DNA of 64,000 nucleotides. Source: Eledone cirrhosa. Its lineage: Eukaryota. Below are positions 9,045 through 62,872 of the stretch, piece by piece; positions within the stretch are counted from its first letter, which is position 1; each line of letters begins with the position of its first letter. The position numbers and the translations under genes are program-made. The notes beneath the pieces were generated by a model. The model saw nothing but the letters and a program-made list of their open reading frames with translations. It was not told the DNA's origin and made no database searches. Location: contig OZ024758.1 of NCBI GenBank assembly GCA_964016885.1, positions 7,440,001 through 7,504,000 of the forward strand. The letters are read 5' to 3'.

Positions 9045-9206
9045 TAAAATAAGAAACTGAGTTGGAGTCGTGCTATTGTTGTCGTTACCGGTTCACCACT
9101 TTTTACAAAACCTAACCGGTAACAACAATCCCACGGCCCCCTGTCTTGAAAGGCGGGGGATGGACGCACAAAAACCGTGTATCCCGAGAGCCTTAAATAA
9201 ACAAAT

Positions 9207-9395
9207 AATTGTTTCTACTTTTGGCACAAGGCCAGCAATTACCCAGTACATTACTGGTACTTTATTTTATCGACCCCGTAAGGATGAAAGGCAAAGTTAA
9301 CCTCGGCGGAATTTGAACTCAGAATGGCAAGGGCCGTAACTCCATACGTCAAAGCATGGCGTCCGACCCTCTACCGATACTGCCAGTCCACCGCT
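9207..9395 (-). mobile_element. SINE family 1 (young copy)
   Basis: Near-identical to 47626-47815 and 49579-49765. Confidence 0.9.
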
Positions 9396-10259
9396 CTTGT
9401 AAATAATAATCATTGGTTACGATATAACTCTGCTAAAATTGACTATTGTTGTTTTCCTAGTGACAAATACTGCAGATATGTAAAGGTTAAAATGAAAAGT
9501 TCAATCAATTTCTTGACGAAAAAACAAATCACTAACGTGTCCTGAACTAATATAAAAACAATAATTAAAATAAAATAAAATAAAATAATATAACAAATAA
9601 AAAGATTAAAACCATGTTTCTGTCGAAAGAAATTGAGTTCAATTTAACCTGGGTTAGATTGAACTTGATAAAATAATATTTTTTCTTTCATTTTTTTTTC
9701 CAATTTTTTTTTCGTTTCCATCTATATTTATTTATTTATATTAGTTTTGATAGTTTGTTGTTTTGTTCTATTTAATTTTTATTTTCTCCCTTCATTTAAG
9801 ATTCGATTCTGTGGTTATCTAGTTATCTCGGAGTTCCTCTACAAAAACAACAGCATTGCATTAACATACAACATTCTATCAATCTATAACACAATCAGGA
9901 CATGTTTTTTAATGTTGAGATTTAGTTTGTTTCGTTTTTCGGGGGGTTTTTTCTGTTCCTGTTTTTGCTTTTTTGGCTAATACGTGTAAAATAAATACGA
10001 TAAAATAATAAAAAATGTATTCCAAAATATAAATAATATAAATAATATAAATAATAGAAATAATAGACAGTGAGAATAGAACAATCTGTCAATGAATTTA
10101 ACTGCAAATTAATTGACGATGTTCGGGTTAGTGAATTCTGCACACCAAACTCAAAGATAGGTGATACACTACATTAAACAGCACTGATGGAATATCTGAA
10201 AAAAATTGAAACACTATGTAACTCCTTTATTCCACACAGATAATTATATGCTATGTCTG

Positions 10260-11349
<1,090 letters not shown>

Positions 11350-11479
11350 ATACGCAAAGACGAAATCCGGATCACATTACATTGCGTGTGTGTGGGTTTA
11401 TGTTTGTGTATACATATCCTTATATATATATATATATATGTGTATACATATATATATATATATAGTTTTAATATAGATG

Positions 11480-11530
11480 AGATTCTACAGGACTAGAACT
11501 GTTTCATTCATTAGAAATCATCAGGAATCT
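11480..11530 (-). ncRNA. Mirror hammerhead ribozyme on the opposite strand
   Basis: The left arm is the exact reverse complement of the right arm and retains the full core with a 6-bp stem I (agattc/gaatct). Confidence 0.75.
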
Positions 11531-11538
11531 GAGATTCA

Positions 11539-11591
11539 GAGATTCCTGATGATTTCTAATGAATGAAACAGTTCTAGTCCTGTAGAATCTC
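11539..11591 (+). ncRNA. Type I hammerhead ribozyme
   Basis: gagattc-CTGATGA-t ttc taat gaa t-GAA-ACAG ttctagtc CTGT-A-gaatctc. Stem I 7 bp, stem II 3 bp, stem III 4 bp; predicted cleavage after 11584. Confidence 0.8.
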
Positions 11592-11767
11592 ATCTATATT
11601 AAAACTTTTATACTCTGCTATGTATTGAGTACCTTACTTACTGTGGTTACCTCCGATTCAACCCGGAATAACGTACACATATATATATATATATATATAT
11701 AATCATATGTGCGTGTTTGCGGGAGCATATGTATACGTTTGTGTATACATATGCTTATATACATATA

Positions 11768-16853: not shown

Positions 16854-17335
16854 TACATATATACACATACATATATATATATATACACACATGCATATAT
16901 ACATATATACATACATACATATATATATATACACATACATATATATACATGCATATATATATATACACATACATATATACATATATACCTACGTATATAC
17001 ATATATATATATATACACATACATATATATACATGCATATATATATATATATTCATATATACATACATATATATATATATATATACATATATACAAGCAT
17101 ATATACATGCATAAATACATACATGCATGCATACATACATACATGCATGCATACATACATACATATATACATAGATACATACATAGACACATACATACAT
17201 GTATAGGCACATACATACACGCATACATACATGCATACATACATAAATACATACACATATACATGCATACATATATACATACATAGAGACATACATACAT
17301 ACTTACATAAATACATACATACATATATATATATC
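16200..17335. repeat. Compound (TA)n/(CATA)n microsatellite
   Basis: Direct reading. Confidence 0.9.
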
Positions 17336-17432
17336 TAACTGTTTCTACTTTAAGCACAAGGCCAGCAATTACCCAGTTCATTACTGGTACTGCACTTGGT
17401 AATTGCTGGCCTTGTGCCTAAAGTAGAAACAG

Positions 17433-17435
<3 letters not shown>
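17336..17435. repeat. Fold-back palindrome made of the SINE family 1 3' tail
   Basis: taactgtttctactttaagcacaaggccagcaattacc ... ggtaattgctggccttgtgcctaaagtagaaacagtta. Confidence 0.85.
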
Positions 17436-17486
<51 letters not shown>

Positions 17487-17554
17487 GTATTTATGTAAGT
17501 ATGTATGTATGTCTTTATGTATGTATGTAGAGACATACATACATACTTACATAA

Positions 17555-17602
<48 letters not shown>

Positions 17603-18785: not shown

Positions 18786-18883
18786 TAGACGTAAATAGTT
18801 TCCTTGGAATTACCAGATAAAGGGCAACATTTTCATTGACAACTCTATAACATAATGACAGTTGTCATTATGTTATAGAATAC

Positions 18884-19020
18884 AGTTACGTCCCTTTACG
18901 ATCTGAGTTCAAATCCCGCCGAGGTTGACTTTGCCTTTCATCCTTACGGGGTCGATAAAATAAAGTACCAGTAATGTACTGGGTAATTGCTGGCCTTGTG
19001 CCTAAAGTAGAAACAATTAT
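18884..19020 (+). mobile_element. 5'-truncated SINE family 1
   Basis: agttacgtccctttacgatctgagttcaaatcccgccgagg...agtagaaacaatt. Confidence 0.85.
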
Positions 19021-20237
19021 ATTATAGAATAAAAAGATTATAATTATTTCCCCAGCATATAATTATATACTGGGGAAATACTTATAGCGAGCTTGTTCTG
19101 TGAGCTAAGAAATTATTTTTTAACTTATGTCATTAACCTAGCTTTTGAAGTTACTCCAAGTTGTTGAAACAAATGTTCATTCAATTTTAATATAGGAATA
19201 GAAATTCTTTCACAACTCTTCACACTTTTTTCAAATATTGTTTGTAATCACTTTAAAAACATTTTATATTATATTATATTATATTATATTATATTATATT
19301 ATATTATATTATATTATATTTATTTTATATCCCTGAAATATTTCGAACATCTTTTACAAAATCAGTTCTTTAGAAAACATGTTGTTTTGTCGTTGAAGCA
19401 GTGATACTTAAGGTGAAATTGTTAAGGGTAGTGGTAATAGTGTCGACGATGGAGAATATAGCGGCGTTTCTGGTTTTCCAGAAAGTCCTCCTCAGTAATT
19501 ATATTGATATCAATTCAGAATCTAAGCCAATTGAAATTTAATTGTTGAAAGCTTGAATGGTAGTTGATGGAATCTTTATAGCCCATTGGTGTCCCTGGAA
19601 ATGCTATTTTTAATAATTATAGATTTATTCATGTCATAACTGACTATTTCATATTTTATTTTTAAATTATTATTTCATTTTGTTTTTCTTTTTACAATTT
19701 TTAAAACTAGATTCCTGTAGAAAATATGAGCAATAAGTTTCGTATGAAAAAATAACGATCAACGTTACTGGAAAGGCTTTGAGGGATTTTTTAAAAATCC
19801 CAATTATAATTTGACATTGTGCTGTATAGCTTCTTCAATGAAAACATGACCTGGCCCTTTGGCTCATTCGACTGGAAAAGTTGCAAACAAATATTGTTGA
19901 ATAGGGAATATAAAAAGGAAAAAAATAATTAAATGAATAAATAAAAAATAAACAATTTTTTTTTTTTTAGATATTTAAAAAAAAGTTTATCGTTCGATGA
20001 ATATATGATTCGATTATATGAAGTGAATTGTACAACTTTCTGAAGTGTTAGTTTAATCTCTGGATTCATTCAATGGCATCTTTAATTGATCACGGGGATA
20101 TAAACGGTATTAGTGATAGCACACACAGACACACACACACACAAAAGAGAATTAAGGATCCACTAAAAGGTAGTATTAGTTAGGTCAGACTTCTACCTAC
20201 TATGGTACTATGTAAGACCCTGGTTTTTTTTAGGTAT

Positions 20238-22170: not shown

Positions 22171-22249
22171 TAATTTCTGTACTGTACTGTAAATATCACT
22201 ATATACTGTTCTGTAAATATTACTGTATACTATACATTAAATCATAAAT

Positions 22250-22442
22250 AACTGTTTCTACTTTAGGCACAAGGCCAGCAATTACTCAGCACATTACTGG
22301 TACTTTATTTTATCGACCCCGTAAGGATGAAAGGCAAAGTTAACCTCGGTGGGATTTGAACTCAGATCATAAAGGGACGTAACTCTATGCTAGAAAGCAT
22401 GGCGTCCAACCCTCTACCGATACTGCCAAATCAACCACCCTC
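22250..22442 (-). mobile_element. SINE family 1
   Basis: Full-length match to the reference copy. Confidence 0.9.
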
Positions 22443-22662
22443 ATTAAATAATAAATAACAACATCTTTTTGCAATTATATTACTTCGTGTGTGTCTGAAA
22501 TACACTTAAGAAGTGTAACTATCTTATAATCTAATTTATACCTCCTCTGCTTCTTATGTAAGAACAAAAATTAAATTAAGCAAATATATTACTAAAAATC
22601 TGCCTCTATAAGTGTGACTAACAACAATTTACATATCGTTAGATAACAGTTTATTATTTGAA

Positions 22663-35101: not shown

Positions 35102-35108
35102 TATTTTA

Positions 35109-35330
35109 ATTTTATAGAAGGAGCTTCTACAGGACTAGTACTGTTTCATTCAGATGAAATCTTCAGGAAACAGATTTCATCTGAATGAAACAGTACTTCA
35201 GGAAACAGATTTCATCTGAATGAAACAGTACTAGTCCTGTAGAAGCTCCTTCTATAAAATAAAAAAATTTTACTCTGCCATGTATTGAGTACCTTACTTA
35301 CTGTGGTTATCCCCGACTCAATCCGGGACC
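35109..35330 (+). mobile_element. Family A palindromic element with an internal 35-bp duplication
   Basis: Arms attttatagaaggagcttctacaggactagtactgtttcattcagatgaaatct and its reverse complement; same tail as the 11464 copy. Confidence 0.75.
35123..35171 (-). ncRNA. Type I hammerhead ribozyme (family A)
   Basis: gtttc-CTGAAGA-t ttc atct gaa t-GAA-ACAG tactagtc CTGT-A-gaagc. Confidence 0.75.
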
Positions 35331-35357
35331 TATGTATATATATATATATATATATAT

Positions 35358-35531
35358 AGGAAAAAGTATGACCCCGACGGCTATCTCTGGACTAGTCCAG
35401 AAATAGCCGTCGAAACGGCTTGAGCTCTGCCGTCGGGGGTCATACTTTTTCCTATTTCCCACTCTACTACCCTAAGTATTGAGTACTCTGGTGCGTTATG
35501 GTCCATCTGGTTCCTTACCACAATTCATTTG

Positions 35532-44540: not shown

Positions 44541-44731
44541 CCTCGGGTTCAATCGGGGGAAGTCACGGGTAATAAGGTATTCAATACACTAGTAGAGTGA
44601 AAGCATCAAGTTTGATATAGAAATAGTTTCTACAGAACTAAATTTGTTTCATTCGATCAGGAACCCTTTCCTGATGATTTCTTTTGAAAGAAACAGTTCT
44701 AGTCCTGTAGAAACCAGTTCTATATTGAACT
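44541..44731 (-). mobile_element. Older family A element with diverged arms
   Basis: taaggtattcaatacactagtagagt is the reverse complement of the family A tail; arms agtttgatatagaa...tttctacag / ctgtagaaa...ttctatattgaact. Confidence 0.7.
44667..44713 (+). ncRNA. Type I hammerhead ribozyme (family A)
   Basis: tttc-CTGATGA-tttc tttt gaaa-GAA-ACAG ttctagtc CTGT-A-gaaa. Confidence 0.75.
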
Positions 44732-46991: not shown

Positions 46992-47434
46992 CCAATACTA
47001 TTAGTCTAGTAAACTCACTAAGACATTCTATTGTTGAGATTGTCAGAATCCTTAGAAAGTCATAGAAGATGTTTTTACCACATTTAGTTTCTTCTTCCTA
47101 TATTGTAATTTTCAAATCTGGCCGAGGTGGACGTTGCTTCTCATCATGTTGGGGCCCCTTAAAACAAAGCAGCGTTTTATTCAATTATAGCCGCTCCTCC
47201 AATTCGTGGCCTTCTGCCAAGTTTAAAAATCAATATCGCTGTGATCATGCGCACATGTGTACATTGGAGGTTAAGATAGCAATCCATAATAAACTTCTAG
47301 TGCCTTCGACTATCGTTGTAGGTACAAGGATCTATGGAATAGTAGAGAATTGGTTTTGATTTGCCTGCAGGAGTTTGAAAGAGTAAATTGTAGACTGGTC
47401 TTATTGTATGGTAGAAATATATGATGTAAATTAT

Positions 47435-47815
47435 AATTGTTTCTACTTTTGGCACAAGGCCAGCAATTACCCAGTGCATTACTGGTACTTTATTTTATCG
47501 ACCCCGTAAGGATGAAAGGCAAAGTTGACCTCGGCGGGATTTGAACTCAGACCGTAAAGGGACGTAACTATGCTGGAAAGCATGGCGTCCGACCCTCTAC
47601 CGATACTGCCAATTCATCCGTTAAATAATTGTTTCTACTTTTGGCACAAGGCTAGCAATTACCTCAGTGCATTACTGGTACTTTATTTTATCGACCCCCG
47701 TAAGGATGAAAGGCAAAGTTAACCTCGGCGGGATTTGAACTCAGAATGGCAAGGGCCGTAACTCTATGCATCAAAGCATGGCGTCCGACCCTCTACCGAT
47801 ACTGCCAATCCACTC
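47435..47815 (-). mobile_element. Two tandem full-length SINE family 1 copies
   Basis: Matches at ~47435-47620 and ~47626-47815. Confidence 0.9.
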
Positions 47816-48096
47816 ACCATTGTAAAGTATAATATTAGACGGCTAGGGGTGATAGAGAGGAGAGATAGAGAGGGGAGAGAGAGGAGAGAGATAGAGAGGG
47901 GGTTGGAGAAAGAAGGAAAAAGAGAAAGAATGGGGAAAATATAGGAAAAAAGAAAGAAAGGAAGGCGAGATATTCGATTAGCAGGTGTCGCGTTGGAGTG
48001 TCTTGGAAAGTAATATTGACAACAGATGTGGGTATAACTGTAGGGTATAACTGTAAGTTATTGTATTGAGGTAACATATAATATATCTCACATAGT

Positions 48097-49119: not shown

Positions 49120-49765
49120 CGATAAAATAAAGTACCAGTAATACACTGGGGTAATTGTTGGCCTTGTGCCAAAAGTAGAAACAATTATTTGGATTGGCAG
49201 TATCGGTAGAGCGCCGGACACCAAGCTTTGCGGCATAGAGTTACGGTCCTTTACGTTCTGAGTTCAAATCCCGTCGATGTTAACTTTGCCTTTCATCCAT
49301 ACGGGGGTAGATAAAATAAAGTACCAGTAATGTACTGCGGAATGATTTCTGATTTAAACACAAGGCTAGCAATTTTTTTAGAGGAGGGGGAAAGTCGAGT
49401 CAATCGACCCCAGTACATTACTAGTACTTTATTTTATCAAACCCCGTAAGGATGAAAGGCAAAGTCAACCTCGGCGGGATTTGGACTCAGAACGTAAAGG
49501 AATTTAACTCTCTGCTACAAAGCTAGGTGCCTAACGCTCTACCGATTCTGCCAATCTACCACCTTGACCTCCCGACATAATTGTTTCTACTTTTGGCACA
49601 AGGCCAGCAATTACCCAGTAGATTACTGGTACTTTATTTTATCGACCCCGTAAGGATGAAAGGCAAGGTTAACCTCGGCGGGATTTGAACTCAGAATGGC
49701 AAGGGCCGTAACTCTATACGTCAAAGCATGGCGTCCGACCCTCTACCGATACTGCCAATTCACCG
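49120..49765. mobile_element. Cluster of four SINE family 1 pieces (+,+,-,-)
   Basis: Tail 49120-49187 (+), 49190-49340 (+), 49342-49562 (-), 49579-49765 (-). Confidence 0.85.
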
Positions 49766-58862: not shown

Positions 58863-58880
58863 TTTATTATATATATTTAT

Positions 58881-59071
58881 AAGGGCGGTGAATTGGCAGA
58901 TTCAGTAGAGGGTCGGACGCCATGCTTTCTAGCATAGTTACGTCCCTTTACAGTCTGAGTTCAAATCCCGCCGAGGTTAACTTTGCCTTTCATCCTTACG
59001 GGGTCGATAAAATAAAGTACCAGTAATGCACTGGATAATTGCTGGCCTTGTGCCTAAAGTAGAAACAATTA
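58881..59071 (+). mobile_element. SINE family 1, full-length reference copy (tRNA-derived head)
   Basis: A-box-like tggcagattcagtag, B-box gagttcaaatcc, core gcctttcatccttacggggtcgataaaataaagtaccagt, tail gctggccttgtgcctaaagtagaaacaatt. Confidence 0.9.
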
Positions 59072-59313
59072 TTTATATATCTATAACTGACTTCTTACCT
59101 GAATATTTATATCTCCCTCTCTCTCTCTATATATATATATATATGTGTGTGTGTGTATGTATATGTGTGTGTGTATGTATGTGAGTATATTTATGTATAA
59201 ATATATATATATATATGTGTGTGTGTGTGTATGTATGTGAGTATATTTATGTATAAATATATATATATATTATATGTGTGTGTGTGTGTGAGAGAGTATA
59301 TTTATGTAGTATG

Positions 59314-60991: not shown

Positions 60992-61519
60992 TTCAAAATA
61001 TTAACAAAAATAGACATTCGTGTGATCAAGTATATTTTATTATACATATTTCAGAGGTACTGAGCTATCTTCAACAGTATGTTCTCATCAGATAAAATAA
61101 GATGATGCATGACATACCCTGACTAAGTACATGGTTAAGATTCAGTCATGGCAGTGAATAAGATATGACAAAACTCAATATTTATATATGTATGTATGTC
61201 TCTCTTTCACTTAATTTCGAGTACATTTTTCACCGACCACATTCGTGGTGGCAAGGAGGCAAAAGAAAAGAAATTGTCATCCCTTTCGCAAGAATGTTTT
61301 GTAAATTTTGAAGGTGCCAGCTATCGCAGCCATTTGTAGTCTATGAATTAGGGAGCTTCCCGCTTTGTCCACAAATCCAAGTTCAGTTATATGTACGTAT
61401 GTATGTATGGAAATACTTGGTTTGGCGCCCGAATGCGCGGTTAGCCCACGGGGAATGAGCGAACCCGAGTTTTTATAATATATAATATAATATAAAATAA
61501 AATAATATATAATATAATA

Positions 61520-61710
61520 TAATTGTTTCTACTTTTGGCACAAGGCCAGCAATTACCCAGTGCATTACTGGTACTTTATTTTATCGACCCCGTAAAGATG
61601 AAAGGCAAAGTTAACCTCGGCGGGATTTGAACTCAGACCATAAAGGGCCGTAACTCTTTGCTGCAAAGCATGGCGTCCGACCCTCTACCGATACTGCCAA
61701 TCCACCGCCT
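61520..61710 (-). mobile_element. SINE family 1, full length, inside an (ATATA)n array
   Basis: Match to the reference copy. Confidence 0.9.
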
Positions 61711-61714
61711 TTAC

Positions 61715-62255
61715 ATAATATAATATAATATAACATAATATATAATATAATATAATATAATTGTTTCTATAATATAATATAATATAATATATAATATAAT
61801 TGTTTCTATAATATATAATATAATATAATATATAATATATTACAACTACAATATAACATAATACAATACAATATAATATAATATATAATATAATTGTTTC
61901 TATAATATATAATATAATATAATATATAATATATTACAACTACAATATAATATAATATAATATAATATAATATAATATAATATAATATATAATATAATTG
62001 TTTCTATAATATAATATAATATAATATAATATATAATATAATTGTTTCTATAATATAATATAATATAATATAATATATAATATAATTGTTTCTATAATAT
62101 ATAATATAATATAATATATAATATATTACAACTACAATATAATATAATACAATATAATATAATATAATATAATATAATATAATATAATATAATATAATAT
62201 AATATAATATATAATGTATTACAACTACATATAATATAATACAATATATAATATA
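61715..62255. repeat. (ATATA)n pentamer array with recurring attgtttcta and ttacaactac inserts
   Basis: Direct reading. Confidence 0.9.
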
Positions 62256-62665: not shown

Positions 62666-62872
62666 ACGAAGGAAATGTGGTAAGGAACCAGATGGACCAT
62701 AACGCACCAAAGTACTCAATACTTAGGGTAGTAGAGTGGGTAATAGAAACGAGTAGGACCCCGACGGCTGAGCTCAAGCCGTTTCGACGGCTAATTCTGG
62801 ACTAAAATGTTAGTCCAGAATTAGCCGTCGAAACGGCTTGAGCTCAGCCGTCGGGGTCCTACTCGTTCCTAT
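62666..62872 (-). mobile_element. Family B palindromic element, best-preserved copy
   Basis: 63-bp arms 62743-62805 / 62810-62872 with one mismatch; tail is the reverse complement of 35455-35530; (TA)n on both sides. Confidence 0.8.

What the first reader, a model, noticed from the sequence alone, without database searches (positions are those of the whole stretch)
11464..11670. Family A: perfect 67-bp fold-back that encodes a hammerhead on both strands
The palindrome places a complete hammerhead on the + strand (11539-11591) and its mirror on the - strand. A read-through transcript could form either one long dsRNA hairpin (a possible siRNA or ADAR substrate that would inactivate the ribozyme) or the ribozyme fold. 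An asymmetric ~65-nt conserved tail follows and ends in microsatellite.
Basis: partly seen in the sequence, partly recalled or inferred. Interest (0 to 1): 0.8.

Follow-up and report, generated by a model that had tools for sequence, protein, structure and literature searches.

The report
Head-to-head stub of Hydra retrotransposon
This mirror-image stretch is one of thousands of short stubs of a known ribozyme-carrying jumping gene, likely made when its enzyme copied the first 67 and 133 letters of its own RNA onto the two sides of one DNA cut, so it says more about how these elements insert than about a designed RNA switch.

Summary
The palindrome (67-bp exact arms, 9-nt spacer) and a type I hammerhead motif on each strand are real. 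The locus is a young stub of a Hydra-clade Penelope-like element (PLE) in (TA)n. Its right arm plus tail is identical to the first 133 nt of an intact 713-aa RT-GIY-YIG element elsewhere in the genome (L111); the left arm is nt 1-67 inverted. The 30-nt tail end occurs 8,070 times; 49 of 90 copies sampled without regard to the centre are such short palindromes, nearly all with different centres. Arms start sharply at hammerhead stem I, 30 nt behind a conserved TATA box, and 1,743 of 2,128 arms with a non-genomic base there carry G, as a copied cap would give. Best model (inferred): two target-primed cDNAs start at +67 and +133, run off the RNA 5' end and are joined. In a read-through RNA the hairpin is predicted to abolish the ribozyme fold; cleavage, siRNA and editing are untested. 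The anatomy is published, and this scan reported such stubs many times on other DNA of this genome; the TATA/extra-G link is the new part.

The parts
11448..11463 (.). (TA)n target, left side
   Evidence: sequence; both flanks are (TA)n in 30 of 30 loci
11464..11530 (-). Inverted arm = nt +1..+67 of the PLE 5' leader (inferred cDNA primed at +67); holds the - strand hammerhead 11530-11480
   Evidence: (the intact element L111 also ends at +67)
11531..11539 (.). Junction: G + second copy of nt +1..+6 + A + G; both G are non-genomic (parent has C at -1); inferred template jump at the RNA 5' end
11540..11590 (+). Type I hammerhead motif: stem I 6 bp, core 11546-11552, 3-bp stem II closed by U/U as in published Hydra hammerheads, stem III 4 bp with 8-nt loop holding CUAG; predicted cut after 11584
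11540..11672 (+). Sense arm plus tail = nt +1..+133 of the PLE RNA, identical to the 5' end of intact element L111 (ATG at +182)
11607..11677 (+). One-sided PLE tail (between the two copy ends, +67 and about +133/+138)
11612..11630 (+). Bulged hairpin RCUC-stem-UU-GAGY just behind +67, shared by unrelated families here and by published Hydra consensuses; candidate RT-binding signal
11652..11667 (+). 4-bp hairpin at the tail end (weak covariation)
11680..11702 (.). (TA)n target, right side
   Evidence: (AT)4 within 25 nt in 85 of 90 copies
35104..35335 (+). Stub of a sister subfamily, same layout
44544..44729 (-). Older, decayed stub of a third subfamily, same layout

Best explanation
The locus is a head-to-head stub of a Hydra-clade Penelope-like retrotransposon in a (TA)n repeat, likely formed when the element's RT-endonuclease cut both target strands and primed two cDNAs at internal sites (about +67 and +133) of an RNA that likely starts, capped, at the first base of the hammerhead. 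Shown: identity with the 5' leader of an intact element, the two fixed outer ends, the sharp inner edge at +1/+2, the TATA box 30 nt upstream, the excess of non-genomic G. Inferred: both cDNAs run off the RNA 5' end after only 67 and 133 nt (like strong-stop DNA), and are joined by template jumps, short homologies or fold-back of the shorter cDNA; the tail is the stretch between the two priming sites. The hammerhead is inherited from the parent's pseudo-LTR; the palindrome is a by-product, and the stub has no promoter or ORF of its own.
For: Parent: window 11540-11672 equals the first 133 nt of L111, which goes on to a 713-aa ORF and ends in a second copy stopping at +67. The protein has RWR, DKT, YRDD, CxCX5C, C-terminal GIY-YIG-like, CxxC and CxH motifs, the Hydra features of PMC8557442; its model's best PDB match is TERT. 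Ends: the inverted arm stops at +60..+73 in 52 of 54 measurable copies; its inner end lies at 0..+5 in 33 of 57 but at -20..-1 in only 2. Genome counts of arms ending at +3, +2, +1: 1,001, 2,401, 2,128. TATA 35-36 nt before the core in 21 of 23 upstream stretches that hold a TATA word, across four unlike spacers. G at -1 in 1,743 of 2,128; an untemplated G marks capped templates in L1 (PMC6425141). Made anew: 35 distinct centres in 39. Two templates or fold-back of the short cDNA: the tail-less arm reaches further 5' in 22 copies, the tail arm in 6, 29 tie (p=0.004). In vitro a PLE protein cuts and extends both strands and starts RT at two internal sites that bound the tail (PMC11167929).
Against: No RNA data: start site and cap are inferred. 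The extra G has a rival source, a 1-3 nt snap-back onto stem I: 1 of 21 sampled G arms is a clear snap-back, 8 can be read as copied from the partner arm or flank, and 11 of 21 have T at -2, which both readings allow. Arms ending at +2 show no G excess (G 40, T 52, C 8 in the first 100, hand count) and their G is mostly partner-derived. Variants are mirrored in both arms (36 of 36 at +21, 16.4 expected; 39 of 39 at +53, 28.9 expected), which argues against two unrelated RNA templates unless subfamilies were active at different times. Later deletions at the hairpin centre could also vary the centres and blur the 22:6 bias. PMC3846280 explains head-to-head junctions by self-priming on an antisense template.
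Confidence: 0.72

Rival explanations
1. Same PLE stub, but the inner edge is set by the hammerhead fold and not by a start site: RT stalls or snaps back once it has copied both strands of stem I, and the extra G is the first base of that snap-back.
For: L087/L178 is such a snap-back product; T at -2 in 11 of 21 G arms; no G excess at +2; earlier scan notes saw the same edge in other families.
Against: A TATA box at the textbook distance is kept across diverged spacers; the window copy itself has A, not T, at -2; stem I is predicted to be unstable in RNAs of 67-190 nt (pair probability <=0.02).
Confidence: 0.15
2. One cDNA primed at +133 folds back and copies itself to +67, or self-priming occurs on an antisense template (Arkhipova et al. 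2013).
For: Full mirroring of variants; model in PMC3846280 (passages).
Against: The tail-less arm often holds sequence that the tail arm lacks (22 against 6; L119 and L153 by 100-260 nt); +67 is also the end of the full-length copy L111.
Confidence: 0.07
3. A non-autonomous palindromic element (MITE- or SINE-like master) that is copied whole, or a hairpin kept by selection as siRNA or ADAR substrate and ribozyme switch.
For: High copy number; a perfect 67-bp hairpin would be a dsRNA substrate if transcribed (general knowledge); some centres recur.
Against: Centres differ in 35 of 39; the promoter-like TATA lies outside the stub; older copies decay in one arm at a time; 33 of 90 sampled copies show no adjacent inverted arm within the stretch sampled.
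Confidence: 0.05
4. Assembly or library fold-back artefact.
For: Perfect palindromes beside microsatellites are a known artefact class (own knowledge); no long reads over this locus were available.
Against: Thousands of copies with fixed asymmetric ends, distinct centres and one-arm mutations; raw short reads of two runs show the same ends and opposite-strand joints for the family.
Confidence: 0.01

Closest known systems
Hydra-clade Penelope-like elements (Craig et al. 2021, PMC8557442; section 11, passages, supplement parts 2 and 53 and search hits seen)
   Same: C-terminal GIY-YIG, DKT, CxCX5C, CxxC and CxH motifs, (TA)n target, hammerhead with core CUGAUGAU...UGAA; inverted 5'-truncated copy and one-sided tail
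   Different: A different family from Hydra-1_Obim (other hammerhead); RWR for RWK; parent about 6.0 kb with a long simple-repeat 3' part against <3 kb; tail 66-70 nt against the 30-40 bp given for PLEs; stubs of about 200 bp dominate
PAc/Poseidon two-site internal RT initiation (Frangieh et al. 2024, PMC11167929; parts 1-2 of 4 read)
   Same: Two copy ends bounding a tail, AT-rich target, hammerhead near the 5' end of the ORF, both strands extended
   Different: Here both sites lie in the 5' leader before the ATG (+182); the parts read do not describe palindromic stubs ending at a start site
Adineta vaga Penelope pLTRs (Arkhipova et al. 2013, PMC3846280; passages)
   Same: Head-to-head inverted pLTRs with palindromic junction, tail, putative TATA and Inr in the pLTR
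   Different: Explained there by antisense self-priming; the passages seen do not link the junction to the start site or a cap G
Opposite-strand hammerhead pairs of Schistosoma PLEs (Cervera and de la Pena 2014, PMC4209133; parts 1-2 of 4 read)
   Same: Dual hammerheads 100-700 bp apart on opposite strands, read as truncated PLEs; low in vitro activity
   Different: Here stem III is 4 bp with an 8-nt loop and G10.1-C11.1 is absent
Animal non-LTR retrozymes (bioRxiv 10.64898/2026.07.22.740005; part 1 of 5 read)
   Same: Protein-free, type I hammerhead, PLE-derived
   Different: This locus is a single head-to-head pair, not a head-to-tail array; an array of the same family exists elsewhere (L207)

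Membership tests
Type I hammerhead ribozyme | Core CUGANGA, GAAA, UH with helices I-III, helix I open | tested here: met
   87% of cells paired in 25 copies, stem I with changes on both sides in 2 of 6 pairs, core nearly invariant
Type I hammerhead ribozyme | G10.1-C11.1 closing pair | tested here: not met
   U/U instead; the same pattern stands in most published Hydra hammerheads
Type I hammerhead ribozyme | Match to an Rfam hammerhead model | tested here: not met
Type I hammerhead ribozyme | Self-cleavage after GUA | not testable with these tools
   fold is marginal: stem I pair probability 0.57-0.76 at 52 nt, <=0.02 at 67-190 nt
Hydra-clade PLE (parent L111) | Single ORF with RT and C-terminal GIY-YIG | tested here: met
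   713 aa; YRDD and GIY-YIG-like motif; Pfam GIY-YIG only E=0.012, below cut-off; fold nearest TERT
Hydra-clade PLE (parent L111) | RWK, DKT, CxCX5C linker, CxxC and CxH | tested here: met
   RWR38, DKT116, C566, C666, C694; in 25-30 of 30 aligned homologues
Hydra-clade PLE (parent L111) | Insertion into (TA)n | tested here: met
   85 of 90
Hydra-clade PLE (parent L111) | Hammerhead in the pLTR | tested here: met
Hydra-clade PLE (parent L111) | Generally short (<3 kb) | tested here: not met
   about 6.0 kb from +1 to the 3' end; a tendency in the paper, not a strict criterion
Hydra-clade PLE (parent L111) | Placement in the clade by RT phylogeny; absence of CCHH | not tested
   compared by eye with the published alignment only
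PLE insertion anatomy | Inverted 5'-truncated copy plus tail at one end | tested here: met
   57 of 90 copies have an adjacent inverted arm
Non-LTR retrozyme | Two or more head-to-tail units each with a hammerhead | tested here: not met
   single head-to-head pair here; met by L207 elsewhere
MITE | Terminal inverted repeats at both ends and a fixed internal sequence | tested here: not met
   tail lies outside the repeat; centres differ

The most novel reading that the evidence does not exclude
Hydra PLEs make strong-stop-like cDNAs: their capped mRNA starts at hammerhead stem I, RT primes inside the 5' leader from both ends of one cut, and most events end as 200-bp palindromes. The thousands of stubs are then a genome-wide record of start site, cap copying and both priming sites, and full-length copies would need read-through RNA from a tandem or a jump the short RNA cannot give.
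Probability: 0.45. Interest if true: 0.6.

Novelty: new member of a known kind. Interest (0 to 1): 0.36.

Why it matters
How PLEs, the closest mobile relatives of telomerase RT, insert is still open beyond the first steps (PMC11167929). This family offers an intact, young parent, exact coordinates for the predicted start site and both priming sites, and a candidate RT-binding hairpin, so the two-primer model can be tested directly. It also explains a common false lead: back-to-back hammerheads in such genomes are insertion stubs. If transcribed inside introns, thousands of perfect 60-70 bp hairpins would be a large source of dsRNA, but that is untested.

Tried and rejected
Rfam: no hammerhead hit; miRNA-like hits are only the hairpin. 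DNA search of G000 with arm plus tail alone returned nothing because common words are skipped; the 209-nt search selects for similar centres, so its 30 loci were not used for end statistics. GIY-YIG loci (50 loci, 260 kb) held stubs but not the parent; the parent came from the tail pattern. Count of arms ending at -2 (852) is not usable: 94 of the first 100 carry G, as a natural subfamily does (L105, L163). Cap G at +2: not supported. Covariation of the bulged tail hairpin within this family: none on both sides; it shows only between families. Tail-end hairpin: covariation not above shuffles (42 of 500); RNAalifold on the tails gave no useful structure. A second copy of the bulged hairpin behind +133, reported by earlier scan notes for other families, was not found here with a strict descriptor. 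Sequencing runs: no RNA holder listed, which says nothing about expression. Read support for the parent L111 was not obtained. Not in print as far as searched: none relevant or zero; listings; subscription papers and Repbase were not searchable.

Full report
Observation. The arms 11464-11530 and 11540-11606 are exact reverse complements over 67 bp around a 9-nt spacer, and 11539-11591 folds into a three-helix type I hammerhead with CUGAUGA, GAAA and a GUA cut site after 11584. The mirror lies on the - strand. Rfam does not recognise it. Two diverged copies with the same layout lie in the window at 35104 and 44544.

A large dispersed family. G000 is a 3.0-Gb eukaryotic genome; earlier scan notes call it octopus, which I did not test. 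The last 30 nt of the tail match exactly 8,070 times, the reversed control never. I took the first 90 of these matches on contig C1, a sample blind to the centre; two pairs may be non-independent (L085/L086 are neighbours, L130/L132 look duplicated). Of the 90, 49 are short palindromes, 8 longer palindromes, 13 run upstream beyond the stretch taken, 10 start upstream without an inverted arm and 10 are short without one. (AT)4 follows within 25 nt in 85 of 90. Raw short reads of two runs of one species label show the family's ends, its upstream sequence and opposite-strand joints; they do not test this locus alone.

The parent. In L083 and L095 the tail runs on into an RT reading frame. L111 holds the whole element: the same 133 nt, identical to window 11540-11672, an ATG at +182, an open 713-aa ORF, a long simple-repeat 3' part and a terminal copy that stops at +67 before (TA)n. 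The protein has 1,403 relatives at E<=1e-30 among 7,992 candidates scored; its model (pLDDT 87.7) matches telomerase TERT best. It carries RWR, DKT, YRDD, CxCX5C, a C-terminal GIY-YIG-like motif, CxxC and CxH, the features that Craig et al. give for the Hydra clade (PMC8557442), and its hammerhead has the CUGAUGAU...UGAA form of their table. It is not Hydra-1_Obim. No tree was built.

Outer ends. The inverted arm stops at +60 to +73 in 52 of 54 measurable copies, with peaks at +60 and +67; the other arm stops at about +133. An inverted truncated copy with a tail on one side is the published PLE anatomy (PMC8557442; PMC3846280), opposite-strand hammerhead pairs were seen in Schistosoma (PMC4209133), and a purified PLE protein cuts and extends both target strands and starts RT at two internal sites that bound the tail (PMC11167929).

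Inner end. The inverted arm ends at 0..+5 in 33 of 57 copies and at -20..-1 in 2. Genome-wide, exact arms ending at +3, +2 and +1 number 1,001, 2,401 and 2,128 (ends followed by chance by the genomic letter are not counted), against 4,972 that run on upstream, many in arrays. A TATA word lies 30 nt before +1, and 35-36 nt before the core in 21 of 23 upstream stretches that hold such a word, across four unlike spacers (the count is conditioned on the word being present). The parent has C at -1, yet 1,743 of the 2,128 arms with another letter have G. In L1 an untemplated G is read as a copied cap (PMC6425141, passages). Against this: of 21 G arms inspected, 1 is a clear snap-back onto stem I, 8 can come from the partner arm or flank, 12 have no such source, and T at -2 (11 of 21) fits cap plus added A as well as a short snap-back (my reading of the printed rows). 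At +2 there is no G excess. The window's own spacer is G, a second copy of +1..+6, A, G: two extra G and a template jump. D. virilis Penelope has a TATA-less internal promoter (PMC2377424, passages), A. vaga pLTRs a putative TATA and Inr.

Made at insertion. 35 of 39 centres differ, many with short re-copied pieces. Subfamily variants are mirrored: 36 of 36 at +21 (16.4 expected; three copies whose arm does not reach +21 left out) and 39 of 39 at +53 (28.9 expected). So both arms come from one RNA, one active locus or one period, or one is copied from the other. The tail-less arm reaches more than 5 nt further 5' in 22 copies, the tail arm in 6, and 29 tie. A tail-arm cDNA copying itself cannot give this without later deletion, and a +67 cDNA cannot give the tail, so two primed cDNAs, perhaps with fold-back of the shorter one, fit best.

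The ribozyme and the hairpin idea. Across 25 copies of three subfamilies the core is nearly invariant and stem I shows changes on both sides in 2 of 6 pairs (related sequences inflate the shuffle test, and junction letters lower the outer pairs). The fold is marginal in the natural leader, in line with the weak or protein-assisted activity reported for PLE hammerheads. In a read-through RNA of the palindrome its pairs have probability below 1e-14, so no switch is predicted: the hairpin simply wins. Whether such RNAs exist, are diced or are edited was not testable.

Tail signal. Behind +67 lies a bulged hairpin RCUC-stem-UU-GAGY. A descriptor finds 301 hits in the loci held against 26 in reversed sequence (5 against 0 in the window), most from this family but also unrelated families with ACUC/GAGU or GCUC/GAGC. 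By eye it stands in the published Hydra-2_Amil, Hydra-1_Ajap and Hydra-2_Ajap consensuses (3 of the 5 whose relevant ends I saw). Earlier scan notes gave this lead. Within the family it shows no two-sided change, and no second copy was found behind +133.

Verdict. A real, young, ordinary stub of a new Hydra-type PLE family. The anatomy is known and this scan has reported it repeatedly in the same genome. My searches (scan look-ups) found no paper that ties PLE palindrome centres to a capped start site; subscription papers and the supplements of the bioRxiv retrozyme preprint were not seen. Interest 0.36.

Noticed in passing
L207 (G000:C1 about 83.68 Mb): Head-to-tail array of about 1,070-bp units (simple-repeat 3' part, TATA, hammerhead, tail; no ORF seen in the unit printed) of this same family: a retrozyme-like array derived from a PLE. 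The strand skew of the upstream pattern (3,449 against 1,523) suggests large arrays.
   Followed up: partly
L111:752-6790 (-): Intact 713-aa Hydra-type PLE with about 3.6 kb of microsatellite-rich sequence between stop codon and terminal pLTR; the same simple-repeat tract seems to travel with other copies (L082, L084, L207).
   Followed up: partly
window 35360-35525, 46757 (-), 62721 (-): A second, unrelated palindrome-plus-tail family in (TA)n that shares the bulged tail hairpin; a copy sits right beside the stub at 35104.
   Followed up: partly
window 34950 (+), 46407 (-), 9039 (-), 465 (-): Further CUGANGA...GAAA motifs that may be hammerheads of other families.
   Followed up: no
window 49120-49644, 17164-17601, 62743-62872: Other self-complementary stretches in the self-BLAST.
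   Followed up: no
window 9205-9410, 18880-19025, 22244-22464, 47416-47835, 49577-49765, 58865-59078, 61504-61736: An abundant dispersed repeat of about 190-220 bp, many copies in the window.
   Followed up: no
L022/L208, L275, L279, L280, L290, L294, L297: Copies in which the tail is on the other or on both arms; L208 holds two palindromes 2,333 bp apart.
   Followed up: no
G000: 10,596 GIY-YIG candidates (150 scored), several in open frames of 500-1,100 aa; other Hydra-like ORFs in L113 and L115.
   Followed up: no
window 11573-11580: Loop III holds a self-complementary CUAG; two hammerheads cofold through it, as in the dimer model of PMC4209133.
   Followed up: partly
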